Of a DNA stretch of 64,000 bases, positions 1,275 through 62,820 are shown one piece after another. The stretch's first letter is position 1; the number at the start of each line of letters is the position of its first letter. Origin of the DNA: Thermoanaerobaculia bacterium. GTDB taxonomy: Bacteria > Acidobacteriota > Thermoanaerobaculia > Gp7-AA8. Below the pieces are notes generated by a model, which was not told the origin of the DNA, searched no databases, and saw nothing but the letters and a program-made list of their open reading frames with translations. Made by a program: the position numbers and the translations under genes. The stretch covers positions 10,531 to 74,530 of the forward strand of contig JBBRNB010000006.1 in assembly GCA_038230535.1 (NCBI GenBank), read 5' to 3'.

Positions 1275-2668
1275 GATCCGAGCAACTCCCGGAGAACCTC
1301 ATTCGCCAACTCCGCTTTTGCTTTGCCACTCGTCTCTTTCATCAGTTGACCGACCAGAAATCCGAAGAGCTGCGCTTTGCCGGCACGGTACTGCCCGACC
1401 TGCACGGCATTGCGCTCGATCACGCGCCGCGCCGCTTCACGGATGACCTCGGGGTCGCTGATCTGCGACAGCCCTTTGCGTTCGACGATCTGCTCGGGCG
1501 CTTCACCGCTCACGGACATGTCGTCGAAGACTTCCCTGGCAGACTTGCCGCCGATGGCGCCGCTGTCGATGAGGCGGATCAGCCGTCCGAGCATGCCGGG
1601 GGTCACGCGATAGCCGCTGATGCCGGCCTTTTGCTCGTTGAGAACGCGCAGCACGTCGTTGCGCACCCAGTTCGCCGCGGCGCGAGGGTTGCCGCTGGCA
1701 TCAGCGACAGCTTCGAAGTATTCGGCGAGCTGCCTCGACGTGACGAGCGCCTCGGCGTCGACGGCGCTGAGGGCGAAGTCGCGCTGGTAGCGCTCCGCGC
1801 GGAGCTGTGGCAGCTCAGGGACGGAGCGTGCGATCTCGTCGATCCACGCTCGTTCGACAACGAGCGGCGGCAGGTCGGGATCGGGGAAGTAGCGGTAGTC
1901 GTGTGCCTCTTCCTTCGAGCGCATCGGACGCGTTTCACCCGAGGCCGGATCGTACAACCGCGTCTCCTGAGTGATCGCGCCGCCCGATTCGAGTACACCG
2001 GTCTGACGTGCGATCTCGAAGTCGATGGCGCTGCGAAGGTAACGGAAGGAGTTGAGGTTCTTGATCTCCGTGCGCGTCCCGAGCTCAGCTCCCGGCTGCC
2101 GCACGGACACGTTGGCATCGCAGCGCAGAGAGCCTTCCTCCATGTTGCCGTCGCAGACGCCGGTATACATGAGGATCTGCCTCAGACGCGTGAGGTACGC
2201 ATCCGCCTCTTCAGCGGAGCGGATGTCGGGCTCGGAGACGATCTCGACGAGCGGTGTCCCGGCGCGGTTGAGATCGACGTGCGAAACCTCGCCGTGATGG
2301 ATCGACTTCCCCGCGTCTTCCTCCATGTGGATGCGCAGGATGCGTACACGGCCAATGCTTCCTCCCGTCGCGAGCGGCCGGTCGAATTGCGAGATCTGAT
2401 ATCCCTTGGGCAGGTCTGGGTAGAAGTAGTTCTTCCGCGCGAAAACGGATCGTTCGTGGACGGTGCATCCCGAGGCGATCGCGGCGCGGATGGCCAGCTC
2501 TACAGCCCGCCGGTTCAGCACCGGTAATGCTCCCGGATATCCGAGACAGACAGGGCAGACCTGCGTGTTCGGTGGCGCACCAAAGGAGGTGGAACAGCCG
2601 CAGAAGATCTTCGTGGCGGTGGAGAGGTGCGCGTGGACTTCGAGGCCGATGACTGCTTCCCGCGACAT
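1271..2668 (-). CDS. gatB: aspartyl/glutamyl-tRNA(Asn/Gln) amidotransferase subunit B
   Basis: N-terminus [10 protein letters not shown]...KIFCGC...[19 protein letters not shown]...IHMEEDAGK and a C-terminal GatB/YqeY-like tail. ATG at 2668. Confidence 0.9.
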
Positions 2669-2685
2669 TTCCTCGATTATGACAT

Positions 2686-2790
2686 TGGGAGTAGGGAGTG
2701 GGGAGTGGGGAGTGGAGTGGGGGGTGGGGGGTGGTGGGGGAGGTTCTGTTATTTCCTTTACGACCCCCTACCCCCCACTCCCCACCCCCG
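2686..2790. repeat. G-tract/C-tract palindrome (GGGAGTAGGGAGTGGGGAGTGG...GGTGGGGG / CCCCTACCCCCCACTCCCCACCCCC) in the divergent gatB/GGDEF promoter region
   Basis: Read directly: a run of GGGAGT-type units is followed by its reverse complement. The same motif family recurs at about 22275-22330, 35165-35245, 52462-52500 and 60515-60610. Confidence 0.65.
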
Positions 2791-2812
2791 GGCATACAAT
2801 CCCCGGCAACCC

Positions 2813-5074
2813 ATGTCCCGCGCGTTACTCCTTCGTATCTATATACTTACAGCAATCACGATAGCCGTCGGGGCGGTGATGTGGACCTTCAGCGTGGCGT
2901 CGTTGACAACTGCCGAGGCCTTGTTCTATGCGGGGCTGGTCGCGGTTGCGGCGTGGGTGCGCATCGAAGAGGGGACGCCCGGTTTCGAGGCGGCGGTCGT
3001 ATTCGCGGCCATTCTCATACTGCATGACCCATCGGTCGCATTGATCGCTGTGTTTGCCGGCAGCGCGGTGTACCACGTGGGTCACGATGCCGGCCGCCGC
3101 GTCTTCAGGCTCGATTCGTTGTCCCAGGCTGCAGAACAGGCGCTTTCGTACTACATCGTTGCGCTGCTGTACTCGTCGGCGGTGGCGAAGGATGCGCTGC
3201 CGATGGCGAAGGTCTCGGGCTACATCCTTCTCGTCGTCGGCTATCTCGTCGTGCACTTGCTTTTCACGGCGGTCAGGTATGCGCTCGGGGGACGCGGGGA
3301 CGCTCTCGACGTTCGCCGCATTCTGGCCGTCCAGGGTCAGATGCTGTTCGTGATGACGCCGGTCGTCGCGGCGGAGGTACTCTGCCACTCCCTTTATGGG
3401 ATGCCTGGTTTCGCGCTGGCCTTCCTGCCGGCGCTCGTGATCGCGTACGCGATGCGCAACGAGTCGGACGCGGCGCGGCAGAATGCGGAACTGGTCCGGC
3501 GCAACCGAGATTTGTCCATCCTCACGGAGAGCGCTTCGCAGATCCTTTCAGCCGAGGGCGATCAGGAGACGCTTCGGCGAATGGTGTCACTCCTCGGCCG
3601 GCTGGCCCGGCTGAAGGCGTGCGCGGTCGTGACGTGGGGACCGAACCCTGACACTCCGGCCACGGTCTATCGCCACGGAGCCTGTCAACCGGCCGACCAG
3701 GGGATTCTCGCCTGGGTCGAATCAGCCGGCTTCGCCGAGTCGGCTCCGAGCCGTGCCTTCATCTTTCACAACGATCAGCGGCGCTTCCCGTTGTCCGAGG
3801 GGAACGCCATCCAGGTACTGATCGGCATTCAGACGGTGGAGGTCATCTACGGAGTCCTCATCTACGAGACCGAAGAGCAGTCGATCCTGAAGAGCGGCAG
3901 CATCAATCTCCTGACGTTGCTGGCCAGTCAGACGGGGCTATCGCTTCAGGATCAATTGCTGCGGCGTGAGATGGAAGAGAAGAGGACGCAGCTCGAGGCG
4001 CAGGCGGCGACGAAGTCACTGATCCTCGAGGTCGCCCACGATCTCATCGGCTCGTTTGACGTCGACGCCATGCTGACACGCATCGCTCAGGCAATCAGCA
4101 CGGCGCTCGGTTTCGAGAAGGTGGTCTTCGCGCTCTACGACGTGAAACGTGCGGAGTTCACACGCCGCGCGCACGCCGGACTCGATGATGTTTGGGAGGA
4201 GATGAAAAAGAAGACCGTGGCTTCGAGCGAGATCACGCCATTCTTCGCGGGCGAGTTCAGCGTCTCGAACTCGTTCTTCATCTCGCACACCGTGCTGCAG
4301 CAGAGTGAGCACGGGTTCTTCGTCAGACATGATGACGATCTCCTGCGGCGCCCCGACGAGTGGCATGACAACGACAACCTGATCGTGCCGCTGGTCAGCG
4401 CGGAGGAGATGCTCGGCTACCTGTCCGTACGCGACCCGCATGACCGGCGCGTGCCGAATCTGGAGATGGTGCAGACGCTGGAGATCTTCGCGTTCCAGGC
4501 TGTGTCTGCGCTGCGGTCGGCGAGGCAGTACGATGAGATCCGCCGCCTTACCTTCATCGACGGGCTGACCACCGCGTTCAACCATCGCTACTTTCAGGAC
4601 GCGCTGGCGAAGGAGCTCAATCGCAGCGTGCGCACCAGCCGCCAGTTCGCGCTGGCCATGCTCGACATCGATAATTTCAAACGGATCAACGACACCTTCG
4701 GCCATCCTGCCGGCGACGAGATCCTCAAAGGACTGGTCGACGAAATGATGACGAACGCGCGCGACAGCGATGTCGTGGCACGCTACGGCGGTGAGGAGTT
4801 CGCCATCATCTTCGCCGACACACCAGCAGCGTCGGCGCGCGACGCGGCAAACCGGATGCGTGAGCTGATCGCCAGGCGCGAGCTCACAGTGACATCGATC
4901 GGACGGACGTTGCGAGTGACTGTGAGCATCGGTGTCGCCGTCTATCCCCACGACGGCGCAACGACGGCCGATCTGGTCGCCCGCGCCGATTCCGCTCTCT
5001 ACTACGCCAAGAAGAACGGCAGGAATCAGGTGGCGATGGCAGGGGAGTTGCCGGCGGAGAGTGCGCTGGCTTGA
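2813..5074 (+). CDS. membrane-anchored sensor diguanylate cyclase (N-terminal TM segments, GAF-like region, GGDEF domain)
   Basis: C-terminal RYGGEEFAIIF GG(D/E)EF motif and FNHRYF...LAMLDIDNFKRINDTFGH. Hydrophobic N-terminus. The start was moved to the ATG at 2813 (MSRALLLRIY) because the upstream part of the ORF only translates the G/C-tract repeat. Confidence 0.85.
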   Translation: MSRALLLRIYILTAITIAVGAVMWTFSVASLTTAEALFYAGLVAVAAWVRIEEGTPGFEAAVVFAAILILHDPSVALIAVFAGSAVYHVGHDAGRRVFRLDSLSQAAEQALSYYIVALLYSSAVAKDALPMAKVSGYILLVVGYLVVHLLFTAVRYALGGRGDALDVRRILAVQGQMLFVMTPVVAAEVLCHSLYGMPGFALAFLPALVIAYAMRNESDAARQNAELVRRNRDLSILTESASQILSAEGDQETLRRMVSLLGRLARLKACAVVTWGPNPDTPATVYRHGACQPADQGILAWVESAGFAESAPSRAFIFHNDQRRFPLSEGNAIQVLIGIQTVEVIYGVLIYETEEQSILKSGSINLLTLLASQTGLSLQDQLLRREMEEKRTQLEAQAATKSLILEVAHDLIGSFDVDAMLTRIAQAISTALGFEKVVFALYDVKRAEFTRRAHAGLDDVWEEMKKKTVASSEITPFFAGEFSVSNSFFISHTVLQQSEHGFFVRHDDDLLRRPDEWHDNDNLIVPLVSAEEMLGYLSVRDPHDRRVPNLEMVQTLEIFAFQAVSALRSARQYDEIRRLTFIDGLTTAFNHRYFQDALAKELNRSVRTSRQFALAMLDIDNFKRINDTFGHPAGDEILKGLVDEMMTNARDSDVVARYGGEEFAIIFADTPAASARDAANRMRELIARRELTVTSIGRTLRVTVSIGVAVYPHDGATTADLVARADSALYYAKKNGRNQVAMAGELPAESALA

Positions 5075-5129
5075 TCGCGCGATTGCAAACGCGCTCGGAG
5101 TGTTGCCGCGCTCAGGTCATAATCTCCGC

Positions 5130-6440
5130 ATGAAGCGAATCGCAATCCTCATCCTGCTCATCACCTCATCCGCCTTCGCCCAGTCGCTCGATCAGATGAT
5201 CGACCGCGAGATTCCATCGCTTCTCACGACGTACAAGCAGCTTCATGCCGCTCCCGAGCTATCGATGCAGGAGAAGAACAGCTCGGCGCTCGTTGCCGCG
5301 CGGCTGCGCGAGCTTGGTTACGATGTGACCTATCCGGTTGGCCAGTACAGCGAGCCGGGCGCGACCTGCTACGGTGTCGTCGCCATCATGAAGAATGGCA
5401 ACGGTCCGGCCGTTCTGGTTCGCAGCGACATGGATGCGCTGCCGGTGCTGGAGCAGACCGGTTTGCCGTACGCGAGCAGCGTCCGCGCGAAGAGTCCGTC
5501 CGGAGACGACGTACCGGTGATGCACGCCTGCGGACACGACATCCACATGACCACGCTCCTCGGAACAGCGAAGATGCTGGCTCAACTCAAGTCTCAGTGG
5601 CACGGAACGGTGATACTGATCGGCCAGCCAGCCGAGGAAGTGGTCAAAGGGGCGGAGGGGATGATGCGCGACCGGCTGTACGAGCGATTCCCGAAGCCTG
5701 ACTTCGTCATCGCTCTCCACGACAACGCCAACCTCCCTGCGGGGCAGATCGGCTACACATCCGGCTACTTCATGGCCAGCGGAGACTCGGTCAACGTGAC
5801 GATCCGCGGCATGGGAGGTCACGGCGCAGCGCCGCAGGCGACGAAGGATCCGGTAGTGATGGCGGCGCAGTTCATTAATGCGCTGCAGACGATCGTGAGC
5901 CGCGAAGACTCGCCGCTGGACCCGGTGGTCGTCACGGTCGGCTCGATCCACGGCGGGACGAAGCGAAACATCATTCCCGACGAGGTTCAGCTCTTGATGA
6001 CCGTTCGAACGTACAAGCCCGAGGTGCGCAAACGCGTGCTGGCGTCAATCGAACGGATCGCGCGCGGCGTGGCGATGGCGGCGGGCGTACCGGAGGATCG
6101 TGCCCCGATCTTCGAGCTGGTGCCGGGTGAATCAGTCGAAGCGACGTACAACGATCCGGCGCTGACCGAGCGCCTGGCCGCGGCGTTGACGCGCGGGATG
6201 GGCGCCGCGAATGTGATCCGTATCGATCCGCTCATGGTCAGCGAAGACTTCGGCCGTTTCTCCCCCGACCACAAGATCCCCCTCACCATGCTCAACCTCG
6301 GCGCCGTCGACCCCGCAAAGATCGCCAGCGGCCAGCGCCTCCCCTCACTTCACTCGTCCGGCTTCGCGCCCCTTCCCGACCCGACGCTGCGTGGAGGGAT
6401 CAAGGCGATGACGCTGGCGGTGATGGAGTTGTTGCATTAG
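5130..6440 (+). CDS. secreted M20D-family amidohydrolase (hippurate hydrolase/aminoacylase-like)
   Basis: Signal peptide MKRIAILILLITSSAFA. MHACGHDIHMTTLLGTAKML metal-binding motif of the M20/M20D peptidase family. ATG at 5130. Confidence 0.85.
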   Translation: MKRIAILILLITSSAFAQSLDQMIDREIPSLLTTYKQLHAAPELSMQEKNSSALVAARLRELGYDVTYPVGQYSEPGATCYGVVAIMKNGNGPAVLVRSDMDALPVLEQTGLPYASSVRAKSPSGDDVPVMHACGHDIHMTTLLGTAKMLAQLKSQWHGTVILIGQPAEEVVKGAEGMMRDRLYERFPKPDFVIALHDNANLPAGQIGYTSGYFMASGDSVNVTIRGMGGHGAAPQATKDPVVMAAQFINALQTIVSREDSPLDPVVVTVGSIHGGTKRNIIPDEVQLLMTVRTYKPEVRKRVLASIERIARGVAMAAGVPEDRAPIFELVPGESVEATYNDPALTERLAAALTRGMGAANVIRIDPLMVSEDFGRFSPDHKIPLTMLNLGAVDPAKIASGQRLPSLHSSGFAPLPDPTLRGGIKAMTLAVMELLH

Positions 6441-6940
6441 GGCACGCCTTCGGCGTGCGTTTTCTGCGCTGCGCGCGTTGTCGGCGTTGCACGCGTTTTC
6501 TGCGCTGCGCGCGTTTTCTGCGCTACGCGCGTTGTCGGTTGTCGGTTGTCTGCGGCCTGCGGGCCGCGTTGGCGCGTACGCTCTCGATCCTGGACAAACT
6601 CGATCAGGCCTTGCAGAGGGGCGGCGACACGGCGAATCGAACTTCGGAGCCGCCTCCACGTATCGTCGTCGATGTACTCGAGCCGGTGGGCGGCGATCAT
6701 CTGCGCCTGAACCTCGTACAACGACCCGCGCGCATGGCTGAGAAACTGCCGCCATTCACCGGGAGACAACCGTCCTTGTCCTTCTGCGATGTTGCTGACC
6801 ACCGACACAACTGCCCGCCGAAGCTGCTGCGTCAAACCGAATCGCTCGTCTCGCGGAAAGGCCTTGGTTGTCTTGTAGATAGCTACCATCAGATCGAGAG
6901 AGCGCTTGAATGTATCGAGATCTTCAAATGACCTGGTCAT
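6437..6940 (-). CDS. four-helix-bundle protein ('23S rRNA intervening-sequence protein' family), with a C-terminal tail encoded by the flanking repeat arm
   Basis: MTRSFEDLDTFKRSLDLMVAIYKTTKAFPRDERFGLTQQLRRAVVSVVSNIAEGQGR... matches the PF05635/TIGR02436-type family. ATG at 6940. The last roughly 45 aa (QPTTRVAQKTRAAQKTRA...) are a translation of the GCGCGAAGCGCAGACAAC repeat. Confidence 0.8.
   Translation of the reverse strand: MTRSFEDLDTFKRSLDLMVAIYKTTKAFPRDERFGLTQQLRRAVVSVVSNIAEGQGRLSPGEWRQFLSHARGSLYEVQAQMIAAHRLEYIDDDTWRRLRSSIRRVAAPLQGLIEFVQDRERTRQRGPQAADNRQPTTRVAQKTRAAQKTRATPTTRAAQKTHAEGVP
6442..6470 (+). terminator. putative Rho-independent terminator of the amidohydrolase gene
   Basis: GCACGCC-TTCG-GCGTGC stem-loop followed by GTTTTCT. 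Confidence 0.5.
6458..6557. repeat. left arm of inverted tandem-repeat element (units like CGCGTTGTCGG / TTCTGCGCTGCGCG)
   Basis: Tandem copies that are the reverse complement of the 7028-7155 arm. The same family occurs at 8275-8345 and 49586-49945. Confidence 0.75.
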
Positions 6941-7027
6941 CGCGTTTTGCGGTGCTACGGAGAGGAACGAGAGCGATCGAAAACGCAAGAGGCGACCTGC
7001 CGGTCACTCGGTGGGAACCAAATCATA

Positions 7028-7155
7028 CCATCCCACCGCCACTGACAACGCGCGAAACCGCAGACAACGCGCGAAGCGCAGACAACGCGTGAAGCCGCAG
7101 ACAACGCGCAAAGCGCAGACAACGCGTGAAGCCGCAGACAACGCGCAAAGCGCAG
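7028..7155. repeat. right arm of inverted tandem-repeat element (CGCAGACAACGCG(C/T)GAAGC x about 6)
   Basis: Roughly 22-bp units in tandem, complementary to 6458-6557. Together the arms bracket the IVS-protein gene. Confidence 0.8.
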
Positions 7156-8259
7156 CTATCTCACCCCCTCCGCCATCCTCATCACCTCGGCTTCCATCTC
7201 GGGACCGAATTCTGTCTTGATTTCGTTGATCCAGCCGGAGAGGAGCTCGTTGAGGATCTTGCGGATGACAGTGGGGTAGTCGCTGGTGCCGGAGGCGATG
7301 ACGTTGTTGAGGAGCTGGTCGAAGTCGAGGCGGGCTTCGTTCACCAGGTTCATGCCGGAGAGGTGGGGCGTGGTGCCGGCCGGAAGGTGGAAGATCAGGC
7401 GGTCCATGAAGTCGTAGATGTGATCGCCGATGCGCTGAAAGACCAGACTGAAGATCGATTCGTACATCCGGTTGTAGCGCTCGACGACTTCTTCCAGCTC
7501 GTACTCCGTCTCGGCCGCCGCGCGCTGTTCATTGACCGCGCTGCTTTCCGTTTCCGCGACCAGATTCACGCTGAGCAGCGCCCAGAGCGTACGGCAGGTG
7601 ACGAAGTTCGAGAAATAGCTGCGCGAGCAGACTTCCTCGACCGTGCCGGGCTCGGTGAGGAGGCTCAGTACATGGCTCTCTTCGTCCGTCAGCTCCAGAG
7701 AATAGGTCCGTGTGCCGGCGTCGGATACCTGCTGCAGAATGCGGTCGGGCCGCGCCAGACCGCGAATGATCAGCGACCAGAACTCGATGCTCTGTACTCC
7801 GTCGAGGATGAGGCGTTCGGTGTTCAGGGGCAGGGAGATGATCTCCGGCGGAAACTCGCTCGTGAACTCCATGCTGTAACTGCCGGTGCGGTAGCTGACG
7901 GCGTTGAGCACGATCGTGCTCACCTGGCGCTCCACGGCGCGCAACAGCTCGTCAGGCTGCAGGTAGCCAAGCTCGCAGAGCAGTGCGCCGATGCGCCGGG
8001 CCACGACGATCCGGTCCATGGCGAGGTTGTATTGATGAAGCGACAACTCGCCGCTGCGGAGCAGAATCTCGCCAAGCCCCATGTCCGGATCGGAGCTCGA
8101 CGCGAAGATGATCTTCCCCTCGTTGAAGTAGATGACATCGTTCCGGCCGATCGCTTCCAGCGACACGATGCCGGTCTCACCACTCCGAAGCAGCGTCCGG
8201 AAGAGATCCGGAACAGTCGTCTCCGCAAGGGTTCCCTGGATACTCAGACCGTCGGACAT
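7156..8259 (-). CDS. DUF4388 (PatA-like N-terminal domain) protein
   Basis: N-terminus GTLAETTVPDLFRTLLRSGETGIVSLE is the DUF4388 signature. ATG at 8259. Lies 132 bp downstream of the 8392-9684 gene on the same strand. Confidence 0.7.
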   Translation of the reverse strand: MSDGLSIQGTLAETTVPDLFRTLLRSGETGIVSLEAIGRNDVIYFNEGKIIFASSSDPDMGLGEILLRSGELSLHQYNLAMDRIVVARRIGALLCELGYLQPDELLRAVERQVSTIVLNAVSYRTGSYSMEFTSEFPPEIISLPLNTERLILDGVQSIEFWSLIIRGLARPDRILQQVSDAGTRTYSLELTDEESHVLSLLTEPGTVEEVCSRSYFSNFVTCRTLWALLSVNLVAETESSAVNEQRAAAETEYELEEVVERYNRMYESIFSLVFQRIGDHIYDFMDRLIFHLPAGTTPHLSGMNLVNEARLDFDQLLNNVIASGTSDYPTVIRKILNELLSGWINEIKTEFGPEMEAEVMRMAEGVR

Positions 8260-8274
8260 GGCGCGATTATATTG

Positions 8275-8345
8275 CGCTGGCGTATTGCGCTTCGCGCGTT
8301 ATCGGTTGCCGGTTGGTTGCGCGGCTGGGCGCCGCGCGGGCGGTT
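8275..8345. repeat. solo arm of the GCGCTTCGCGCGTT...GGTTGCCGGTTG repeat family
   Basis: TGCGCTTCGCGCGTTATCGGTTGCCGGTTGGTTGCGCGG resembles the arms at 6458-6557 and 49590-49730. Confidence 0.5.
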
Positions 8346-8391
8346 GGACTTTACGGTGCAGCTTCCCGGCAAGAGCCGAAGTTTCGCCGTC

Positions 8392-10068: not shown

Positions 10069-10124
10069 ACTCACAGACGTGCGGCATCTCCTTCAGCCGT
10101 CTTGACCGGAGCGGTGGCCGCGTC

Positions 10125-10924: not shown

Positions 10925-11050
10925 AATGAGATGGGGTAGGCAGAAAGCAGAAAGCAGAAAGCAGAAAGCAGAAATGCTGCGCTACGCCCCACGTTTCGGC
11001 GTAGCGCAGCATTTCTGCCTTCTGCTTTCTGCCTTCTGCTTTCTGCTTTC
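10925..11050. repeat. hairpin element with (GCAGAAA)n / (TTTCTGC)n arms; convergent terminator between the MbtH gene and the 11051-11941 gene
   Basis: GCAGAAAGCAGAAAGCAGAAAGCAGAAAGCAGAAATGCTGCGCTACGCC-loop-GGCGTAGCGCAGCATTTCTGCCTTCTGCTTTCTGC... Confidence 0.8.
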
Positions 11051-11941
11051 TCAACCCCTCTCTAACTCCGCCCGATCCCAACCACCCGCGGCGGCGGCGG
11101 CGGCGTAGGTAGACTGGCAGAAGCGGAGGAGGGCATCCTCCGGGTCGGACGACATGCGGACGGCCTCATACGGGAGGACGTACTCGGAGAAGGCGTCGCT
11201 GTAGAAAGCTTCCGCCGGTTCGACGCGGGCGTCCTTGAAGCCGGCCGGCTGCGGGGCGGCGTAGGCGTAGAACGCCGGCGCGGGGAAGGCGCCGCCGCCG
11301 GGCCACCATCCGCAACTGCTGACCTCGTGTGAGTAAGCTTCGCGCGTGATCGGATCGGCGTTCGGATTGTCCGGGGCGCGGCGGCCGGAGAAGCGGGTGA
11401 CGGCCATGTCGAAGCTGCCCCAGAAGAAGTGTACGGGGCTGCTCTTGCCGATGAACGACGCGCGGAACTGGTTCAACAGGCGGTCGGTGAAAATCAGGAT
11501 GCGCCGGAAGCGTTCGACGGCGTCTCGGTCGTATGATGTGTGCTCATGGTCTTCGGCGAACGGAATCGGGTTGTCGATCTCGACCGGGACCGGCCAGATC
11601 TTGACGTCGATGCCGCACTCATGGAGACGCGCCATCGTCTCGGCGTAGAAATCGGCGACGGAGCGAGGGACGAGCGGCACCCGTCCGTGGCGGCCGTCGC
11701 TGCAGCGGATGACGAGTTGGTGATCGATGAAGTCGAATTCGCAGTCGAAGACGCGGCCGCGATACGGGATCGCCGATGTGGTCAGGCCCCTCGCGCTGAC
11801 GTAGAGCGCAGTGTCCCACCAGTGGTTCACCCGAGGAGCGAGAGCGAGGCGGACCTTGCCGGCGATCTGCGTCCACATGTGCAGAGTGTCGCAGGTCGGC
11901 TTCCAATCTGGCAGCGGCAGGGGATCAAGATCGTTGATCAT
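11051..11941 (-). CDS. conserved hypothetical protein (possibly DUF5996-like; family assignment uncertain)
   Basis: 296-aa ORF with ATG at 11941 (MINDLDPLPLPDWKPTCDTLHMWTQIAGKVRL...). No catalytic motif recognised. Confidence 0.65.
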   Translation of the reverse strand: MINDLDPLPLPDWKPTCDTLHMWTQIAGKVRLALAPRVNHWWDTALYVSARGLTTSAIPYRGRVFDCEFDFIDHQLVIRCSDGRHGRVPLVPRSVADFYAETMARLHECGIDVKIWPVPVEIDNPIPFAEDHEHTSYDRDAVERFRRILIFTDRLLNQFRASFIGKSSPVHFFWGSFDMAVTRFSGRRAPDNPNADPITREAYSHEVSSCGWWPGGGAFPAPAFYAYAAPQPAGFKDARVEPAEAFYSDAFSEYVLPYEAVRMSSDPEDALLRFCQSTYAAAAAAGGWDRAELERG

Positions 11942-13094: not shown

Positions 13095-13230
13095 TTTGTG
13101 TTTTGCGGTCTCGCGGGGTGCTGGGTCTCGCGGTCTCGGGGTTGCCTGGTTGCTGGGTTGTAGGGTTGGTTCAACATCTCTCCGACAACCACGCAACCCT
13201 GCTACCGAGCAACTCCGCAACCTCGCAACC
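13095..13230. repeat. hairpin element of the GTTGCTGGGTTG / CAACCCAGCAAC family
   Basis: GGTCTCGCGG-containing loop flanked by CTGGGTTGC-type units and their complements (GCAACCCTGCTACCGAGCAACTCCGCAACC). Confidence 0.7.
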
Positions 13231-13305
13231 GCAACAGTGAGCACCATCACGCCCTCCCGTCGAAATTGCGGTAAAGTTGATTCCTTACACAACCCACAGG
13301 AGAAA

Positions 13306-14072: not shown

Positions 14073-14240
14073 TGTCAGTGGATCAGTAGGTCAGTGGATC
14101 AGTGGATCAGGAACATGCTGGTCGTTGGGTCCTGATCCTGATTCTCTGGTCAACTCATCAAGTCGTTGTTTCGATCAGAAACGAGAGGTCTTCTGATCCT
14201 GATCCACTGATCCACGAACCACCGATCCACTCACTGAATC
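14073..14240. repeat. hairpin element of the GATCAGTG / CACTGATC family
   Basis: GTCAGTGGATCAGTAGGTCAGTGGATCAGTGGATCAGG...loop...CTGATCCTGATCCACTGATCCACGAACCACCGATCCACTCACTG. Confidence 0.8.
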
Positions 14241-30394: not shown

Positions 30395-30590
30395 TAGTCG
30401 ATCAGTGGGCTGGTCGATCAGTAGATTGGTCGATCAGTAGATCAGAAACATGAAACCTGATCCTGATCCACTGATCCACCGCGGTCCCTGATCCACTGAT
30501 CTACTGATCCACTGATCCACTGATCCACTGATCCACTGATCCACTGATCCACCGCGGTCCCTGATCCACCGATCACTGATCCACAGCATC
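30395..30590. repeat. large hairpin element of the GATCAGTG / CACTGATC family
   Basis: GTCGATCAGTGGGCTGGTCGATCAGTAGATTGGTCGATCAGTAGATCAG...loop...(CCACTGATC)x6. Confidence 0.85.
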
Positions 30591-31451
30591 CACCGCCTTC
30601 AAGAACCCAATCATCAACTCATTCACTTTCCCTGGCGCATCGGTCTGGACGAAGTGACCAGCGTCGGGGACGTGCTCGAGACGGAGGTCGGGGACGTACT
30701 CGCTGAAATCGCGCAGAGTCTCCTTCGTGAAAAACGGATCGAGATCGCCCCAGATCATCAAGGTCGGGATGTCGATGCGGCGAATCAAGCCGCGCATCGG
30801 TTTGCGGTGCCTCATGGCGCGGTAGTAGTTGGCCATGCCGGTGAGCGCGCCGGGCTTCGCCCATGCCTCGACATACCTCTCGATCTCCTCGGAGGTGAAG
30901 CAGCCGAGTCGTGACATGGCACGGCGCAGGACGGCGTAGCGGAAACGGCGCAGGACGAATTCCGCCAGCCATGGCAGATGGAAAAGGAGCTGATACTTGG
31001 CCCGCCACTTCTGCCGCGCCGACCGCCGCAGCTCGCGCAGGTATGTCACCGGATGCGGCGAATTGAGGATGATGAGACGGCTGACCAGCTCAGGATAGAG
31101 CATCGCCGTCAGCCAGGCCACGGCGCCACCCCAGTCATGGCCTGCCAGCGCGCACGGTGCGTCGCCACTCTGCGCGATCACGCCCGCGATGTCTTTGGCA
31201 AGCTCAGTAAGGCGGTAGGCGTCAATTTCCTGAGGCCTGGATGAGTCGTTGTAGCCCCGCAGGTCGACTGCGATGACGTGAAAGCCCGCCGCGGCGAGCA
31301 CCGGAATCTGATTCCTCCACGAATACCAGAACTCCGGGAAACCATGCAGCAGCACGATGAGCGGACCGCTCCCCGCCTCGACATAGTGGATGGTCATGCC
31401 GCCGACCTCGCACGTACGGTCGGTGACACTCAGTTCCGAAACCAGCTGCAT
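30573..31451 (-). CDS. alpha/beta hydrolase (epoxide hydrolase-like)
   Basis: HGFPEFWYSWR, GHDWGG nucleophile elbow and a C-terminal DAGHFV catalytic His. ATG at 31451 (MQLVSELS). The 162-codon upstream ORF extension translates the 21-bp repeat as heptads and was not annotated as coding. Confidence 0.85.
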   Translation of the reverse strand: MQLVSELSVTDRTCEVGGMTIHYVEAGSGPLIVLLHGFPEFWYSWRNQIPVLAAAGFHVIAVDLRGYNDSSRPQEIDAYRLTELAKDIAGVIAQSGDAPCALAGHDWGGAVAWLTAMLYPELVSRLIILNSPHPVTYLRELRRSARQKWRAKYQLLFHLPWLAEFVLRRFRYAVLRRAMSRLGCFTSEEIERYVEAWAKPGALTGMANYYRAMRHRKPMRGLIRRIDIPTLMIWGDLDPFFTKETLRDFSEYVPDLRLEHVPDAGHFVQTDAPGKVNELMIGFLKAVDAVDQ

Positions 31452-34118: not shown

Positions 34119-35138
34119 ATGCCCCCCTCCCCACCCACCTGGCAATTCGAAGGCGTCGTAAGGCTGACGCGCATCGGCACCTCGTTTGTCGTCTTCACAG
34201 TCGTCATCGGGTTCGCGGCCATCAATACCGGCAACAACTCTCTCTACATCGGGCTCTCCTTCCTGCTCGGTTGTCTGCTCCTGTCGGGCATCGCTTCGAA
34301 GGGCGGTCTCGAGCATCTCGTCGTGGAGCTCGACGGCATCGACGAGGCGTGGGCGATGCGGACGGCGCACGGGCGGCTTCGCATCATCAATCGTTCGCGG
34401 ATCTGGAACGTGCGTGACGTGATTCTGACTTCTGACGACCTGGCCGCACCGCTCTCCCTCCCGCTGATCGAGCGCCGCGGCGAGGTCGTGGCACACGCGC
34501 AGTTCCGCTTTCGCCGCCGCGGCCTCGTGCAACCCAGCCGCGTCGGTCTTTACACCCGCTACCCGTTTGGCTTTTTCCTGAAGAAGCGCCGCGTGCGGCT
34601 GTCCGGCGATGTCGTCGTGTTTCCCCGGCTTCTCGACGAGGATGTTGTTCGCGATCGTTTTCGTGCGATCGAAGGGGAGTTGCATTCATCCAACCGCGTT
34701 GGCGGCGGTACCGAGCTTCACTCTTTTCGCGACTACGTCCGCGGCGACTCTCTCCGCCGGGTCCACTGGAAGAAGTCCGCATCCCTCGGGCGCTGGATCA
34801 TCAAGCAGACCGAGATCGAGGCCGGCCGATCGGTACACGTCGTCGTCGACCCGTACCGGCCGGGGGGTGTGAGCGAAGAGGAATTCGAAGAGATGATCAG
34901 CGAGGCCGCGACGTTCCTCGATGGCGCGCTGCGAGGGGAGCTCGAGATCGCCTTCTCCATCCCTGCGATGACCCTTCGTTCTGACCGTGATACCGAAGCG
35001 TCGATGTTCCGCGCTCTGGCGTTACTCGAAGCGACGCGTGAGCCGATTGCTCAGGTGGTCGATGGGGATAGCGTTGTGTTTAGCGTGTCGCAATACGCGC
35101 GTGTCGGGAGTCGGGTGCCGGGGGTCGGAGGTGGCTGA
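34119..35138 (+). CDS. DUF58 domain protein
   Basis: DSLRRVHWKKSASLGRW matches the D.R.IHW..SAR DUF58 motif. Two N-terminal TM helices. Start taken at the ATG at 34119; the track start is a TTG at 34041. Confidence 0.8.
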   Translation: MPPSPPTWQFEGVVRLTRIGTSFVVFTVVIGFAAINTGNNSLYIGLSFLLGCLLLSGIASKGGLEHLVVELDGIDEAWAMRTAHGRLRIINRSRIWNVRDVILTSDDLAAPLSLPLIERRGEVVAHAQFRFRRRGLVQPSRVGLYTRYPFGFFLKKRRVRLSGDVVVFPRLLDEDVVRDRFRAIEGELHSSNRVGGGTELHSFRDYVRGDSLRRVHWKKSASLGRWIIKQTEIEAGRSVHVVVDPYRPGGVSEEEFEEMISEAATFLDGALRGELEIAFSIPAMTLRSDRDTEASMFRALALLEATREPIAQVVDGDSVVFSVSQYARVGSRVPGVGGG

Positions 35139-35283
35139 CGTGGAGCGGCGCTTCTCGAGAGAGACAGAGGTCTTGTCTGCGGGAGTCGGGGGGCGGGCGT
35201 CGCGCGTCGGAGAAGCTGTCTCCGACCCCCGACCCCCGACAGCCGGCACCCGTCATCGCGACCTCGAGCTCCTCTTCTTCACA

Positions 35284-41006: not shown

Positions 41007-41135
41007 TTCTGGGTCTCGTGGTTGCCGAGCTGCTCGCATAGGTTGCCAGGTTGCTGGGTTGCTCGGTACGCTGCGCGGAATGGTTACTTCCAAGAACGGG
41101 CAACCTGGCAACTCAGCAACCCAGCAACCAACCAA
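41000..41135. repeat. GTTGCTGGGTTG / CAACCCAGCAAC-family hairpin; the right arm overlaps the cinA start region
   Basis: GGTTGCCAGGTTGCTGGGTTGCTCGG...GGCAACCTGGCAACTCAGCAACCCAGCAACCAACC. Confidence 0.7.
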
Positions 41136-49585: not shown

Positions 49586-49945
49586 AGCTTTGTGGTTAAT
49601 TGCACTTTGTTGTCTGCGCTTCGCGCGTTGTCGGTTGCCGGTTGTCTGCGCTTCGCGCGTTGCCGGTTGCCGGTTGTCTGCGCTTCGCGCGTTGCCGGTA
49701 GTCGGTTGTCTGCGCTTCACGCGTTGCCGCACCGAGAGGGGCGCGAAGGTGTAACCATCGCCCGACGGGCCGCTAACGCCCAAAGGGCAGACAACGTGCG
49801 AAGCGCAGACAACGCCCAAAGGGCAGACAACGCGCGAAGCGCAGACAACGCCCGAAGGGCAAACAACGCCCAAAGGGCAGACAACGCGTGAGCGCAGACA
49901 ACGCCCGAAGCGCAGATAACCGACAACGCGCGAAGCGCAGACTAC
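49586..49945. repeat. cargo-less palindromic element of the GCGCGAAGCGCAGACAAC family (tandem-repeat arms in inverted orientation around a roughly 50-bp centre)
   Basis: Left arm (GTTGTCTGCGCTTCGCGCGTTGCCGGTTGCCG)x4, right arm (GCAGACAACGCGCGAAGCGCAGACAACGCCCAAAGG)x4. Same family as the arms flanking the IVS-protein gene at 6458-7155. Confidence 0.85.
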
Positions 49946-60981: not shown

Positions 60982-62700
60982 ATGCGTCTCCGGATCATCG
61001 TGCCGCTTCTCATCGCGCTGCTCGGCTCTCCGCAGCTCGCGCGCGGTTTCAGCGGCCCGTGCTGCGATTTCTGCACCGATCAATACCAGCAGGAAGGACA
61101 GTTCCCTTACTTCGAGGTGATCCGCACACGCCGGTTGATCATCAACGGAGACATCGTTGGTGGTCAGGGGTGGAAGCGCGTCTTCGAGAGTTGCGAGCAG
61201 GCGGGGCGGGTCAACATCACCGCATCGACCGAGGTCACTGTTGTCGCACGCGCCTACCTCGAGATTGCTGAGCCGAGCACGCCGGGCGCCGGCATCGAGT
61301 ACCGTTGGCTGCTCGACGACGTGCCCGTCGGTCCGACGTTTCATTTTCTTGCTGGCCGGGCCGGGTTCCCGCAGGGGGATGACATCAACATCGTTCTCCC
61401 GCAAGTACCTGCCGGACAACATCGCGTGGCCATCGACGGGCGCGTGACCGGCGACGGCCGTATCAGTTTCCGGCTCCTCTTCATCACCGCGCAAGGGTTT
61501 CCATCCGCCGCGTTTCCGAGTGATTCGCTGATCGTCTCGAGCAGCAGGACGATTGGCAGCGATTGGACCGAAGTGAGTCCTTCGCTCGGCCTTTCTCTGC
61601 CGCAGTCAGCGCACCTCTACTTCCAGGGGTATGTCGAATTCGCAGGCGGCGAGACAGTCAATTTCCGTTACGTGGTCGATGGTATTCCTCTGACGCCCTT
61701 GCGCGTCGTCATCCCGCCTGGTGGTGGCCTCAGCCTCTGGGATCACCTCGGCGACCCCATCGCGGCCGGCGCGCACAGCGTCCGGCTGGAGGGGCGCGCG
61801 GACTCTCCGGCGGTGATGACGCTCGCGCAGGTCGAAGCCGCGACGGGACCGGCGACGATCCAGAACAAGCCGTTGCCAGTGTTCAATGCCGATGTGAACG
61901 GCTCGCTCGGTACGGATCATCAGCCGCTCAACTGCCTCATCCTCGCCGAGGGGGCTTCCGGAGGGACGGGTGGGTTGGGCGGGACGCCCGCGTGCGGTAA
62001 GTACGACCTGCTATTCGATGCCCAACTGCCGGCGGCACCGCTCACATCGTCGGGGAGCGCCTTCGATGATTACACCGCGTTTGGCGACGGCTTTGTCGAG
62101 ATCGAAAACCGGAGCGGCACGAACGGAGTGGTCACGCTGACCGTCGAAGCGATCTACGAGGATGCGAGGGCGGGCGCCTGCAACGCGCTCGTCGAAGCGG
62201 CAGATACGGCATGCGCGAATCCGAGTGCCTGTTCGACGGCCGACTTCACGCTCGTCGAGTTCGCTGTACCGCCCGGCCGCACGCAGAAGTTCTTCTATGT
62301 CGATCCGATTCACTGGGGCTCTTTGGCGCCGAATCGCATTCGTCTCTGGGCGCGCTCGCAGAACGGCTGCGGCTCGGCTCCTGTCGGCCTGACATTCGGC
62401 CGCAGCCGCCTGGGCATGCAGCTCGTTCCAGCCGGCAACGGATCCTGTTTCTCCGCGCACGCGACGGGGCGCGCCGCGGCACCAGCGGTATCGGTATCGG
62501 CAGCGGGCTCGAAGGTTCCGCTCCGACCCCATCAGCGTGACCGTGCCACCGATCGCGCCGCGACGGCGAAGTGCGGGGAATTGATGCTGTCGGTCGATCA
62601 GTGGATTGGTGGATCAGTGGATCAGTGGATCAGTGGATCAGTGGATCAGTTGATCAGTGGGGCAGTGGTCAATGGTCAGTGGGGTCAACGACCCAGTTGA
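60982..62700 (+). CDS. secreted Cys-containing hypothetical protein whose C-terminus is encoded by GATCAGTG repeats
   Basis: Signal peptide MRLRIIVPLLIALLGSPQLARG. ATG 4 bp after the dnaE stop. The last roughly 35 aa (SVDQWIGGSVDQWISGSVDQLISG...) translate the hairpin arm. Confidence 0.6.
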   Translation: MRLRIIVPLLIALLGSPQLARGFSGPCCDFCTDQYQQEGQFPYFEVIRTRRLIINGDIVGGQGWKRVFESCEQAGRVNITASTEVTVVARAYLEIAEPSTPGAGIEYRWLLDDVPVGPTFHFLAGRAGFPQGDDINIVLPQVPAGQHRVAIDGRVTGDGRISFRLLFITAQGFPSAAFPSDSLIVSSSRTIGSDWTEVSPSLGLSLPQSAHLYFQGYVEFAGGETVNFRYVVDGIPLTPLRVVIPPGGGLSLWDHLGDPIAAGAHSVRLEGRADSPAVMTLAQVEAATGPATIQNKPLPVFNADVNGSLGTDHQPLNCLILAEGASGGTGGLGGTPACGKYDLLFDAQLPAAPLTSSGSAFDDYTAFGDGFVEIENRSGTNGVVTLTVEAIYEDARAGACNALVEAADTACANPSACSTADFTLVEFAVPPGRTQKFFYVDPIHWGSLAPNRIRLWARSQNGCGSAPVGLTFGRSRLGMQLVPAGNGSCFSAHATGRAAAPAVSVSAAGSKVPLRPHQRDRATDRAATAKCGELMLSVDQWIGGSVDQWISGSVDQLISGAVVNGQWGQRPS

Positions 62701-62820
62701 TCAGTTGACCTGATCCACCGATAACCGATCCACTGATCACCGATCACCGATCCACCGATCCACCGATCACCGATCCACTGATCGACTGACCCACTGATCC
62801 ACTGATCCACCGATCGACAT
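62590..62820. repeat. large GATCAGTG / CACTGATC-family hairpin
   Basis: (GGATCAGTG)x6 ... loop ... (CCGATCACCGATCCAC)-type units and CCACTGATCC copies. Confidence 0.85.

What the first reader, a model, noticed from the sequence alone, without database searches (positions are those of the whole stretch)
6437..7155. Four-helix-bundle '23S rRNA IVS' protein gene nested in the loop of a long inverted tandem-repeat hairpin, outside any rRNA gene
The CDS (6437-6940, minus) is bracketed by two arms, 6458-6557 and 7028-7155. Each arm is a tandem array of about 22-bp units, and the two arms are reverse complements (GTTGTCTGCGCTTCGCGCG vs CGCGCGAAGCGCAGACAAC). A cargo-less copy of the same element lies at 49586-49945, and a solo arm at 8275-8345.

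This mirrors the way IVS-protein ORFs sit inside excised hairpins of 23S rRNA. It suggests that the IVS protein and its hairpin form a mobile or RNase III-processed module that also inserts into protein-coding operons.

The protein's C-terminal roughly 45 aa are encoded by the repeat arm, so the repeat supplies the stop codon.
Basis: partly seen in the sequence, partly recalled or inferred. Interest (0 to 1): 0.65.

Follow-up and report, generated by a model that had tools for sequence, protein, structure and literature searches.

The report
Four-helix-bundle gene nested in repeat hairpin
A small, well-conserved gene of unknown function sits in the loop of a long hairpin made of short tandem repeats between two ordinary genes, and the same design surrounds most sampled relatives of this gene across many bacterial phyla, so the "ribosomal-RNA intervening sequence" that named the family looks like a special case of a commoner cassette.

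Summary
A PF05635/TIGR02436 four-helix-bundle (FHB) gene (6437-6940, minus) lies between two inverted tandem-repeat arms (6453-6561 and 7044-7155; 81-91% complementary). A cargo-less copy lies at 49609-49945 and a degenerate solo arm at 8275-8320.

Corrections: units are 18-19 nt, not 22. The stop codon lies beyond the arm and overlaps the neighbour's stop.

The pattern generalises. Of 69 homologues from many phyla, none in rRNA, 58 (84%) have flanking inverted repeats, against 1.9% of neighbouring genes. Arms are mostly 7-8-nt units, about 4-5 per arm. Four of six plasmid copies show it too, one inside a type III-B CRISPR operon.

The hairpins are also a dispersed intergenic repeat class. The window has ten, and 600 kb of related metagenome DNA holds about 80 with no FHB gene. 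Polarity is nearly absolute: the 5' arm is G-rich and the 3' arm C-rich.

The protein is under purifying selection (dN/dS 0.04-0.2). Arm units are better conserved than synonymous sites.

The published Coxiella 23S IVS has the same anatomy, with heptamer repeats in an RNase III-cut stem. RNase III processing, mobility and protein function remain untested here.

The parts
6437..6940 (-). Four-helix-bundle (PF05635 / TIGR02436, '23S rRNA IVS protein') CDS, 167 aa
   Evidence: Pfam E 7e-32. NCBIfam TIGR02436 at 2.5e-30. PDB 2GSC at 5.9e-22. AF2 pLDDT 85.5 with four helices; Foldseek 2GSC TM 0.94, also 2RLD and Avd 4DWL. dN/dS 0.10-0.13 against relatives.
6437..6565 (-). C-terminal read-through tail (aa about 126-167). 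It is encoded by the 3' arm plus the neighbour's terminator region.
   Evidence: Homologues end at 125-145 aa. The tail is disordered in the model. Relatives L074 and L076 have a stop before the main 3' arm.
7044..7155 (.). Arm upstream of the gene. On the gene's sense strand it is the G/T-rich 5' arm. It is a tandem array of 18/19-nt units (GTTGTCTGCGC + TTCGCGC mini-palindrome) and starts at the stop codon of the PatA_N gene (7156-8259).
   Evidence: TRF period 19/37, score 162-203. Direct and inverted repeat families. Unit search.
6453..6561 (.). Arm downstream of the gene (A/C-rich 3' arm on the sense strand). It has 18-nt units plus GTTGTCG heptamers and lies inside the 3' end of the CDS.
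   Evidence: TRF. Inverted pairs I1-I10, I15-I20 at 78-100% complementarity.
6941..7043 (-). Spacer between the 5' arm and the start codon. It holds a -10-like box TATGAT (7022-7027, preceded by TGG) and a conserved leader box TCCCACCGAGTGACCGGC (7000-7017).
   Evidence: Alignment with three relatives whose synonymous sites are near saturation. No match in the consensus promoter scan, so the promoter is inferred only.
6442..6458 (+). Small GC hairpin plus T-run directly after the M20 peptidase stop codon (terminator-like)
   Evidence: scan_promoters_terminators
49609..49729 (.). 5'-type arm of the cargo-less copy of the same repeat family (32-nt composite units)
   Evidence: TRF score 214. Unit search. 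Fold z -15.1.
49759..49945 (.). 3'-type arm of the cargo-less copy. The loop is 49730-49758.
8275..8320 (.). Degenerate solo arm of the same family (GCGCTTCGCGCGTTATCGGTTGCCGGTTGG), between the PatA_N gene and the next gene
   Evidence: Sequence. No significant fold.
2687..2789 (.). Cargo-less inverted tandem-repeat hairpin of another unit family (GGAGTGGGG / ACCCCCC)
10940..11051 (.). Cargo-less hairpin, (GCAGAAA)5 / (TTTCTGC)5.7
13105..13235 (.). Cargo-less hairpin, GCGGTCTC / GGGTTGCA units and complement
14075..14231 (.). Cargo-less hairpin, TCAGTGGA / CTGATCCA
30397..30593 (.). Cargo-less hairpin, GTCGATCAGTAGATTG / CTGATCCA
35101..35240 (.). Cargo-less hairpin, GTGCCGGGAGTCGG / CCGACCC
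41039..41135 (.). Cargo-less hairpin, TAGGTTGC / GCAACCCA. The same unit family brackets the FHB gene in relative L003.
62596..62815 (.). Cargo-less hairpin, GATCAGTG / GATCCACC

Best explanation
This is an IVS-type cassette outside rRNA. Its order is: G/T-rich tandem-repeat arm, short leader with a probable own promoter, four-helix-bundle gene, then complementary A/C-rich tandem-repeat arm. It is wedged exactly between the stop codons of two host genes, PatA_N upstream in the same direction and M20 peptidase convergent.

Shown:
- The architecture and its statistical specificity for this gene family across phyla.
- Purifying selection on the protein.
- Conservation of the arm units.
- Membership of the arms in a much larger population of gene-less intergenic hairpins with the same strict polarity.

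Inferred:
- Any transcript spanning both arms (read-through from PatA_N) folds into a roughly 100-bp imperfect duplex. Most relatives would form about 30 bp.
- Such duplexes are RNase III substrates, as demonstrated for the homologous 23S rRNA IVS of Coxiella, Leptospira and Salmonella.
- Cleavage would detach the cassette RNA from the host RNA. That would make the cassette tolerable between genes, inside operons and inside rRNA helices.
- Transcripts from the internal promoter lack the 5' arm and end in an unpaired C-rich, G-poor tract.
- The protein is an Avd-like, probably pentameric, nucleic-acid-binding bundle that acts on or with the repeat units.
For: Anatomy and folding:
- establish the arms and folds.

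Specificity:
- An inverted-repeat score of 15 or more is found for 58 of 69 FHB genes, against 9 of 478 other genes in the same loci. Odds ratio 275, p 5e-57.
- 53 of 76 FHB places lie inside TRF-defined inverted tandem arrays.
- The period is 7 nt in 29 and 8 nt in 6 of 48 hairpins. The median is 4.6 units per arm, about 32 bp.
- The 3' arm begins a median 4.5 nt after the stop codon.
- None of the 72 loci contains rRNA motifs. Rfam finds nothing in the window.

Independent cultured examples:
- Azospirillum, Stanieria, Picosynechococcus (between cmr2 and cmr3) and Riemerella plasmid records.

Literature:
- The Coxiella 23S IVS has (GACAGAT)2-3 heptamers at the 5' side of a 28-bp terminal stem around the S23p ORF. 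RNase III cuts at the first repeat (PMC4990558).

Selection:
- The protein is functional: dN/dS 0.04-0.20.
- Arms stay complementary when units turn over between syntenic orthologues: L003 GGGTTGCT versus L004 GGGGTCTC.
- Close relatives L074-L076 keep the same arm family and a conserved leader.

Fold:
- 2GSC, 2RLD and Avd, each deposited with five chains, and the DGR ribonucleoprotein 8UB7.
Against: - No RNA data exist, so RNase III cleavage is argued by analogy only.
- Mismatches in 49 hairpins are no more G.U-compatible on the gene's sense strand than on the antisense strand (53 vs 56). Selection for a sense-strand RNA helix is therefore not detectable.
- Arm unit sequence is more conserved (93-100%) than synonymous sites (dS 0.9-1.7) in several orthologue pairs. 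Pairing alone does not require this; it points to sequence-specific recognition.
- The near-absolute G-first polarity is not predicted by a simple RNase III-stem model.
- If the gene uses its own promoter inside the 5' arm, its own mRNA cannot form the long stem.
- The promoter is not detected by the consensus scan.
- The sample of homologues was drawn with peptide patterns from this protein. It may not represent all of PF05635.
Confidence: 0.55

Rival explanations
1. Cognate-factor model, analogous to REPIN/RAYT. The hairpins are a dispersed repeat population. Each FHB paralogue is the trans-acting partner of one unit family, binding about 4-5 tandem units as a pentameric ring in the manner of TRAP. 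Its own gene is flanked by its binding sites for autoregulation or co-inheritance. This overlaps with, and could coexist with, the best explanation.
For: - Cargo-less copies vastly outnumber the gene-bearing copy: about 76 paired hairpins and 33 solo arms of this family in 600 kb, with 0 FHB genes.
- Unit sequence is conserved beyond the needs of pairing.
- Arms hold a median 4.6 units. Homologues crystallise with five chains, and Avd binds RNA in the DGR RNP.
- Unit families that are cargo-less in the window (GGTTGC, GCGGTCTC) bracket FHB genes in related genomes L003, L004 and L002.
- Protein pairs above 60% identity have more similar arms: 0.35 vs 0.15.
- C-terminal tails of the whole subfamily translate GACAACC/GGCAACC heptamers.
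Against: - There is no global correlation between protein and arm similarity (rho 0.008; 221 of 500 permutations reach it).
- Taxonomy confounds the high-identity bin.
- No binding data exist, and no catalytic domain that could spread the repeats.
- Loops of cargo-less copies are unrelated between sites, unlike REPIN copies.
- The prediction of one FHB per family could not be counted without whole genomes.
Confidence: 0.25
2. DNA-level element. The inverted arrays act as terminal inverted repeats or extruded ssDNA/cruciform hairpins for transposition, recombination or break repair. The FHB gene is cargo or an accessory factor, and RNA structure is incidental.
For: - Symmetric mismatch spectrum.
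- Multiple paralogous modules per genome with different units: L010/L013, and two modules in L056.
- Block inversions between close relatives have breakpoints at the arms.
- G-rich strands run 5'->3' toward the centre on both sides, as expected if repeats were added to 3' ends at a break.
- Copies occur on conjugative plasmids next to IS elements.
Against: - Modules are stably inherited at syntenic positions over dS >1.
- No transposase or recombinase is associated.
- No target-site duplications were looked for successfully.
- Loops differ between copies.
- Homologous IVS stems are proven RNA substrates (PMC4990558).
Confidence: 0.15
3. The tandem arrays are contingency loci. Slippage changes the unit number and so switches FHB expression or neighbouring genes on and off (phase variation). 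The inverted arrangement is secondary.
For: - Heptamer copy number upstream of the S23p ORF varies among Coxiella strains.
- Unit numbers differ between orthologues.
- The 5' arm abuts the putative -35 region.
Against: - This does not explain the complementary downstream array, the strict polarity, or the thousands of gene-less hairpins between convergent genes.
- 7-8-nt units outside coding frames give no frame switching.
Confidence: 0.05
4. Coincidence. A small gene happens to lie between two halves of an ordinary intergenic terminator or repeat, with no functional or evolutionary link.
For: The genome is crowded with such hairpins, ten in 64 kb.
Against: 84% versus 1.9% in matched controls across many phyla, and 0 of 200 random placements reach the observed score in about 50 loci.
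Confidence: 0.01

Closest known systems
23S rRNA intervening sequences carrying an S23p/PF05635 ORF (Coxiella burnetii helix 45; Leptospira)
   Same: - Same protein family in the loop.
- Terminal inverted repeats form a stem of about 28 bp or more.
- In Coxiella, tandem heptamers (GACAGAT) make up the 5' side of the stem, with variable copy number.
- The ORF runs close to the 3' stem.
- RNase III cuts in the stem (PMC4990558).
   Different: - Not in an rRNA gene. There is no rRNA in the window or in 72 related loci.
- The arms here are much longer (about 100 nt) and built of 18-19-nt composite units.
- The protein here is under strong purifying selection, whereas the Coxiella ORF is argued to be decaying and unexpressed.
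- Excision is untested here.
REP/REPIN elements and their RAYT genes (REPtrons)
   Same: - A single gene is flanked by inverted copies of a repeat that is otherwise dispersed in many gene-less hairpin copies in intergenic regions.
- The gene-bearing copy is vertically inherited.
- A genuine RAYT-like example turned up in L031.
   Different: - The enclosed protein is a 4-helix bundle, not a Y1 transposase.
- Arms are tandem arrays of 7-8-nt (here 18-nt) units rather than a single palindrome.
- Loops of gene-less copies are not conserved.
- Many paralogous modules with different units occur per genome.
Inverted heptamer simple-sequence repeats: GGGAATC in Xanthomonas, GGGGA(C/T)T and STRR heptamers in Nostocales (Rehm 2015, PMC4692102)
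   Same: - Intergenic tandem heptamers, typically about 4 units and close to the 5'-side ORF.
- 70-75 pairs per genome in 'convergent' orientation, which is the same G-first polarity.
- Array #15 in their supplement overlaps the start of XCC0516, the crystallised FHB.
   Different: - That work treated the repeats as G-quadruplex motifs and did not connect them to the FHB family or to IVS.
- The units here are longer composites and not G4-prone.
Avd, the accessory protein of diversity-generating retroelements
   Same: Same fold (Foldseek 4DWL, 8UB7), weak HMM similarity, a pentameric barrel, and RNA binding.
   Different: - The Avd HMMs are far below cut-off: 21.5 vs 80 bits and 19.5 vs 40 bits.
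- No reverse transcriptase or template/variable repeat pair was seen next to the gene.
MITEs and other non-autonomous inverted-repeat elements
   Same: Short intergenic elements with inverted ends, many copies, able to fold as hairpins.
   Different: - The ends are internally tandem-repetitive and register-tolerant.
- The internal sequence is not conserved among copies.
- No cognate transposase is known, and no target-site duplication was established.

Membership tests
PF05635 / TIGR02436 four-helix-bundle ('23S rRNA IVS protein', 'S23 ribosomal protein') family | HMM score above the curated cut-off | tested here: met
   Pfam 110.3 bits vs 33.8. TIGR02436 104.9 bits vs 24.
PF05635 / TIGR02436 four-helix-bundle ('23S rRNA IVS protein', 'S23 ribosomal protein') family | Up-down four-helix bundle like XCC0516 / BT_0352 | tested here: met
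   AF2 pLDDT 85.5 with four helices. Foldseek 2GSC TM 0.94 and 2RLD TM 0.85.
PF05635 / TIGR02436 four-helix-bundle ('23S rRNA IVS protein', 'S23 ribosomal protein') family | Homopentameric assembly | not testable with these tools
   The only evidence is that 2GSC, 2RLD and Avd entries each hold five chains.
Bacterial rRNA intervening sequence (IVS) | Inserted in a 23S (or 16S) rRNA helix (23S helices 9, 25, 45) | tested here: not met
   Rfam finds no rRNA in the window. The flanks are protein genes. No rRNA motifs occur in the 72 related loci.
Bacterial rRNA intervening sequence (IVS) | Complementary termini forming an extended stem with the ORF in the loop | tested here: met
   The same holds in 58 of 69 homologous loci.
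Bacterial rRNA intervening sequence (IVS) | Excision by RNase III without religation | not testable with these tools
   Needs RNA end-mapping. Shown only for rRNA IVS in the literature (PMC4990558).
REPIN/RAYT (REPtron) | The enclosed gene is an IS200/IS605-like Y1 transposase | tested here: not met
   The gene is PF05635.
REPIN/RAYT (REPtron) | The gene is flanked by inverted copies of a repeat that is dispersed in many gene-less copies | tested here: met
REPIN/RAYT (REPtron) | Gene-less copies are near-identical over their whole length | tested here: not met
   Loops are unrelated except in orthologous duplicates.
MITE / IS-type transposable element | Target-site duplication and a cognate transposase | not tested
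   The array boundaries are fuzzy and no transposase is adjacent. No TSD analysis was done.
DGR accessory protein Avd | Avd HMM above cut-off, with an adjacent reverse transcriptase and TR/VR pair | tested here: not met
   NF033474 scores 21.5 bits vs 80 and PF22296 19.5 vs 40. The neighbours are PatA_N and M20 peptidase.
CRISPR array | Repeats separated by unique spacers of similar length | tested here: not met
   Units are contiguous head-to-tail.
Intrinsic (Rho-independent) terminator | Short GC stem followed by a U-run | tested here: inconclusive
   Only small sub-hairpins at 6442-6458 and 6501-6513 (+) fit. The 100-bp stem does not.

The most novel reading that the evidence does not exclude
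The PF05635 four-helix-bundle proteins comprise more than 30,000 clusters at 50% identity. On this reading they are ring-shaped, sequence-specific binders of tandem 7-8-nt arrays, one unit per subunit and about 4-5 units per arm. Each paralogue would govern a genome-wide family of polar inverted-repeat hairpins that insulate, process or terminate transcripts. The rRNA 'IVS' would be one accidental habitat of this system. The strict G-first polarity would reflect either how the arrays are made (templated addition to 3' ends) or a Rho/R-loop-based insulator function.
Probability: 0.2. Interest if true: 0.9.

Novelty: new variant of a known kind. Interest (0 to 1): 0.72.

Why it matters
The S23p/IVS protein family has had no function since 1993, yet it is very large: 30,234 clusters at 50% identity match the profile.

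- Its normal habitat appears to be the loop of a polar, inverted short-tandem-repeat hairpin between or inside ordinary transcription units.
- The rRNA IVS shares that anatomy.
- Three separate literatures become one testable system: rRNA IVS, heptamer SSR/G4 repeats in Xanthomonas and cyanobacteria, and DGR Avd.

This gives concrete experiments:
- binding of XCC0516 to (GGGAATC)n;
- rnc-dependent cleavage at the arms;
- polarity-swap constructs.

It also has practical consequences:
- assemblies break at these repeats, as the Logan contig does;
- the repeats are probable breakpoints of block inversions;
- they may be mis-scored as CRISPR-associated features.

Tried and rejected
- Exact look-up of the 167-aa protein found nothing. 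A neighbour gave only a 3.8-kb Logan contig that ends at the repeat, so the source genome was not recovered.
- The G.U versus A.C mismatch asymmetry gave no signal: 53 vs 56, p 0.85.
- The global protein-versus-arm similarity correlation was null, rho 0.008. Only the high-identity bin differs.
- The consensus sigma-70 scan found no promoter in 6300-7300. The -10-like box rests on conservation only.
- A search for homology between the cargo-less loop and the inner edges of the FHB module found only arm-derived matches. There is no evidence that the cargo-less copy is a deletion derivative.
- tblastn for FHB relics in 600 kb around 80 repeat sites found none, even at E 1e-3.
- An rRNA motif scan of all loci gave only spurious single 14-mer hits.
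- PADLOC gave no significant defence-system match.
- Literature searches for PF05635, 'four helix bundle protein' and heptamer repeats found no paper linking the gene family to flanking inverted tandem arrays. Ralph & McClelland 1993 is not held.
- CRISPR array, chance placement and DGR Avd were considered and rejected (see the membership tests).
Full report
**1. What is at the coordinates**

The minus-strand ORF 6437-6940 encodes a 167-aa protein. It matches PF05635 (23S_rRNA_IVP) at E 7e-32 over residues 6-109. It matches TIGR02436 'four helix bundle protein' at 2.5e-30, and the DGR Avd model only weakly. In the PDB it matches XCC0516 of Xanthomonas campestris, entry 2GSC, at 5.9e-22.

An AlphaFold model built on 32 homologues has pLDDT 85.5. 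It shows helices at 9-25, 36-53, 60-86 and 92-125, and a disordered tail from about residue 132. Foldseek returns 2GSC (TM 0.94), BT_0352/2RLD, Avd 4DWL and the DGR ribonucleoprotein 8UB7. The three crystal entries (2GSC, 2RLD, 4DWL) each hold five chains.

There is only one such gene in the window.

**2. The arms**

Tandem Repeats Finder and the repeat finder place the left arm at 6453-6561. It consists of 18-nt units GCGCGCGTTTTCTGCGCT followed by GTTGTCG x2.9. The right arm is at 7044-7155, with 18/19-nt units GACAACGCGCGAAGCGCA and a 37-nt double unit at 96%. Inverted pairs of 30-37 nt are 78-91% complementary.

It is on the plus strand only in left arms and on the minus strand only in right arms.

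As RNA, 6440-7160(-) folds at -338.6 kcal/mol (z -8.4). The cargo-less element 49586-49945 folds at -235.7 kcal/mol (z -15.1). The 'solo arm' at 8275-8320 is a degenerate single arm with no significant fold.

- Units are 18-19 nt, not about 22.
- The left arm carries GTTTTCT variants rather than the quoted 19-mer.
- The stop codon (TAA 6437-6439) lies 14 nt beyond the arm and overlaps the TAG of the convergent M20 peptidase gene (6438-6440).
- The arm encodes residues about 127-162.
- Close homologues are 125-145 aa. Two of them (L074, L076) have a stop codon before the main 3' arm. The long tail here is therefore a read-through.
- Tails such as TDNRQPTT and GNRQPATGN, which are translated GACAACC/GGCAACC heptamers, are common in this subfamily.

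**3. Context in the window**

The right arm begins at the stop codon of the PatA_N-domain gene (7156-8259, minus). The left arm begins 13 nt after the M20 peptidase stop. The cassette therefore fills the gap between convergent genes and is co-directional with PatA_N.

The spacer 6941-7043 contains a -10-like TATGAT (7022-7027, preceded by TGG) and a box TCCCACCGAGTGACCGGC. Both are conserved in three relatives whose synonymous sites are near saturation. The consensus promoter scan finds nothing, so an internal promoter is inferred, not shown.

Rfam finds no known RNA family in the whole window.

**4. The hairpin is not special to this gene in this genome**

A TRF-based scan finds ten inverted tandem-repeat hairpins in the 64 kb, belonging to about seven unit families. 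Examples are GCAGAAA, GATCAGTG, GGTTGC, GCGGTCTC and GGAGTGGGG. All but this one have loops of 10-93 nt.

These loci contain 76 paired hairpins and 33 solo arms of this family, and no FHB gene at all.

Loops of these copies are unrelated between sites, apart from orthologous duplicates.

Of 68 classifiable gene-less hairpins, 24 lie between convergent genes, 34 between co-directional genes and 10 between divergent genes. The hairpin edge lies a median 9-19 nt from a stop codon (crude gene calls).

**5. The gene, however, is almost always in such a hairpin**

A genome-contig scan returned 72 loci encoding relatives. They come from Acidobacteriota, Planctomycetota, Verrucomicrobiota, Gemmatimonadota, Peribacteria and CPR3, Bacteroidota, Gammaproteobacteria and others. 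None contains rRNA motifs.

Aligning the 250 nt upstream against the reverse complement of the 250 nt downstream gives these results:
- A score of 15 or more in 58 of 69 FHB genes (84%).
- The same score in 9 of 478 other ORF-defined genes in the same loci (1.9%), and in 1 of 160 small genes.
- Odds ratio 275, p 5e-57.
- In about 50 loci, none of 200 random placements reaches the observed score.

The arms are tandem arrays with period 7 in 29 and period 8 in 6 of 48 hairpins. Units differ from locus to locus, for example GTGAAAA, AGTTGAG, GGGGTCA, GTGACAA and TAGTTGG. The median is 4.6 units per arm, IQR 4-5. The 3' arm starts a median 4.5 nt after the stop codon and overlaps the CDS in 15 of 48. 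The 5' arm ends a median 41 nt before the start.

Independent annotated records show the same design:
- Azospirillum lipoferum 4B plasmid, where the gene is unannotated.
- Stanieria NIES-3757.
- Riemerella anatipestifer.
- Picosynechococcus PCC 7003. Here the cassette sits between cas10/cmr2 and cmr3 of a type III-B operon, 36 nt from each.

That last case shows that insertion inside an operon does occur. It may also explain why '23S rRNA IVP' appears among CRISPR-linked domains in PMC10910872.

**6. Polarity**

An inverted repeat of skewed composition can be G-first or C-first, and either would pair equally well. Observed counts:

| Sample | G-first | C-first |
|---|---|---|
| Window hairpins | 10 of 10 | 0 |
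| FHB-bearing hairpins | 40 | 4 |
| 600 kb of metagenome | 64 | 1 |
| Metagenome families not selected by the search pattern | 33 | 0 |

The single C-first case in the metagenome set is an artefact pair spanning two neighbouring hairpins.

Rehm et al. describe the Xanthomonas GGGAATC pairs as 'convergent', which is the same polarity. This rule is unexplained. Candidate explanations are in the notebook.

**7. Evolution**

Several loci are syntenic orthologues. FHB dN/dS is 0.04-0.20 with dS about 0.5-1.7, so the protein is functional.

Arm units are usually more conserved than the CDS:

| Orthologue pair | CDS identity | Arm identity |
|---|---|---|
| L057/L069 | 79% | 96-100% |
| L060/L065 | 79% | 97% |
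| L007/L010 | 82% | 93-97% |

In the syntenic Thermoanaerobaculia trio L002/L003/L004 the unit has turned over (GGGTTGCT, GGGGTCTC, mixed). Both arms changed together.

Relatives at 70-79% protein identity (L074-L076) carry the same arm family as the window. Between them, the blocks [PatA_N-FHB] and [FHB-M20] are inverted, with breakpoints at the arms.

A test for RNA-specific pairing is null: G.U-compatible versus A.C mismatches on the sense strand are 53 vs 56. Global protein-to-arm similarity is uncorrelated (rho 0.008). Pairs above 60% protein identity do have more similar arms, 0.35 vs 0.15.

**8. What is known**

Warrier et al. 2016 (PMC4990558) describe the Coxiella 23S IVS as follows:
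- A 28-bp terminal inverted-repeat stem.
- Two to three tandem heptamers (GACAGAT) at its 5' side, upstream of the S23p ORF, with copy number varying between strains.
- RNase III cleavage at the first repeat.

Rehm et al. 2015 (PMC4692102) describe 70-75 convergent GGGAATC heptamer pairs per Xanthomonas genome. Their supplement lists array #15 overlapping the start of XCC0516, the crystallised FHB, without comment on the family.

No paper in the searchable library links the gene family to flanking inverted tandem arrays. I cannot exclude a remark in database family descriptions or in papers that are not held.

The family is very large: 30,234 clusters at 50% identity at E <= 1e-3.

**9. Interpretation**

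Best supported: an IVS-type cassette outside rRNA. Transcripts that span both arms should form a long duplex that RNase III would cut, as shown for rRNA IVS. That would make the insertion tolerable between genes, within operons or within rRNA helices.

Several features point to something more than a passive stem:
- the extra conservation of unit sequence;
- the count of about 4-5 units per arm;
- the five-chain crystal forms of homologues and Avd's RNA binding;
- the large excess of gene-less copies.

Together these make a cognate-binding (REPIN/RAYT-like or TRAP-like) role for the protein a serious, non-exclusive rival. A purely DNA-level role (recombination, transposition or break repair) is not excluded and fits the symmetric mismatch spectrum and the inversions. 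Coincidence is excluded.

**10. Limits**

- The homologue sample was seeded with peptide patterns from this protein.
- Gene calls for the controls are ORF-based.
- No whole genome of the source organism was available.
- No transcript data exist.
- Mobility, RNase III processing, promoter use and protein function are inferences.

Noticed in passing
window: all ten hairpins (e.g. 10940-11051, 41039-41135, 62596-62815); L077-L156: The polarity of inverted tandem-repeat hairpins is near-absolute: the 5' arm is G-rich/C-poor and the 3' arm C-rich/G-poor. Counts are 64:1 in 600 kb, and 33:0 for families not selected by the search pattern. Pairing energy does not explain this.
   Followed up: partly
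L201 1159-1588 (Picosynechococcus sp. PCC 7003 plasmid NZ_CP016476.1): A four-helix-bundle cassette with GGAGATA-heptamer inverted arms lies between cas10/cmr2 and cmr3 of a type III-B CRISPR-Cas operon. It may explain why '23S rRNA IVP' is listed as CRISPR-associated in PMC10910872.
   Followed up: partly
L074, L075, L076 versus window 2600-8300: Block inversions occur between close relatives, with breakpoints at the repeat arms. [PatA_N-FHB] is inverted between L074 and L076. [FHB-M20] is inverted between L075 and the window.
   Followed up: partly
L031 7870-8590: A RAYT-like Y1 transposase ORF is flanked by 26-nt REP-like inverted repeats. It is a textbook REPtron picked up by the same scan.
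   Followed up: no
window 9797-10031; 12210-12426; 31619-31905: Three other long tandem repeats were not examined: 21 nt x 11 (CGATGCCTAAAAGTTAGGGAT), 39 nt x 4.7, and 21 nt x 13.7 (TGGCGCACACTGTGAGCCGGG). L074 6360-6680 has a comparable 21-nt x 15 array.
   Followed up: no
window 6442-6531 (+): The left-arm units are GTTTTCT variants of GTTGTCT. Together with the GCGC..GCGC mini-palindromes they score as terminator-like sites downstream of the M20 peptidase gene. The arm may double as that gene's terminator.
   Followed up: no
L050 and L058, 5862-6405: The 5' arm can pair with a proximal complementary array upstream of the gene (5937-5978), or with the distal one after the gene (6362-6405). 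This gives two mutually exclusive hairpins.
   Followed up: no
L056 3154-3595 and 5935-6391: Two four-helix-bundle cassettes lie 2.4 kb apart on one chromosome with unrelated units (ATCGTTG and AGTTGAG).
   Followed up: no
L197, L198 (Nostoc sp. PCC 7120 plasmids alpha and gamma): Identical four-helix-bundle proteins on two plasmids keep only the C-rich 3' array (CTCTGCC units). The 5' side adjoins IS transposase genes.
   Followed up: no
L084 8854-8985; L090 4110-4223: The loops of some cargo-less hairpins contain a second, nested palindrome (GCACAGACAAGAGTGTCTGTGC).
   Followed up: no
L001 (Logan contig SRR19962015_1293659), window 7126-10967: The only public contig identical to the window ends inside the right repeat arm. 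This suggests that short-read assemblies break at these arrays.
   Followed up: no
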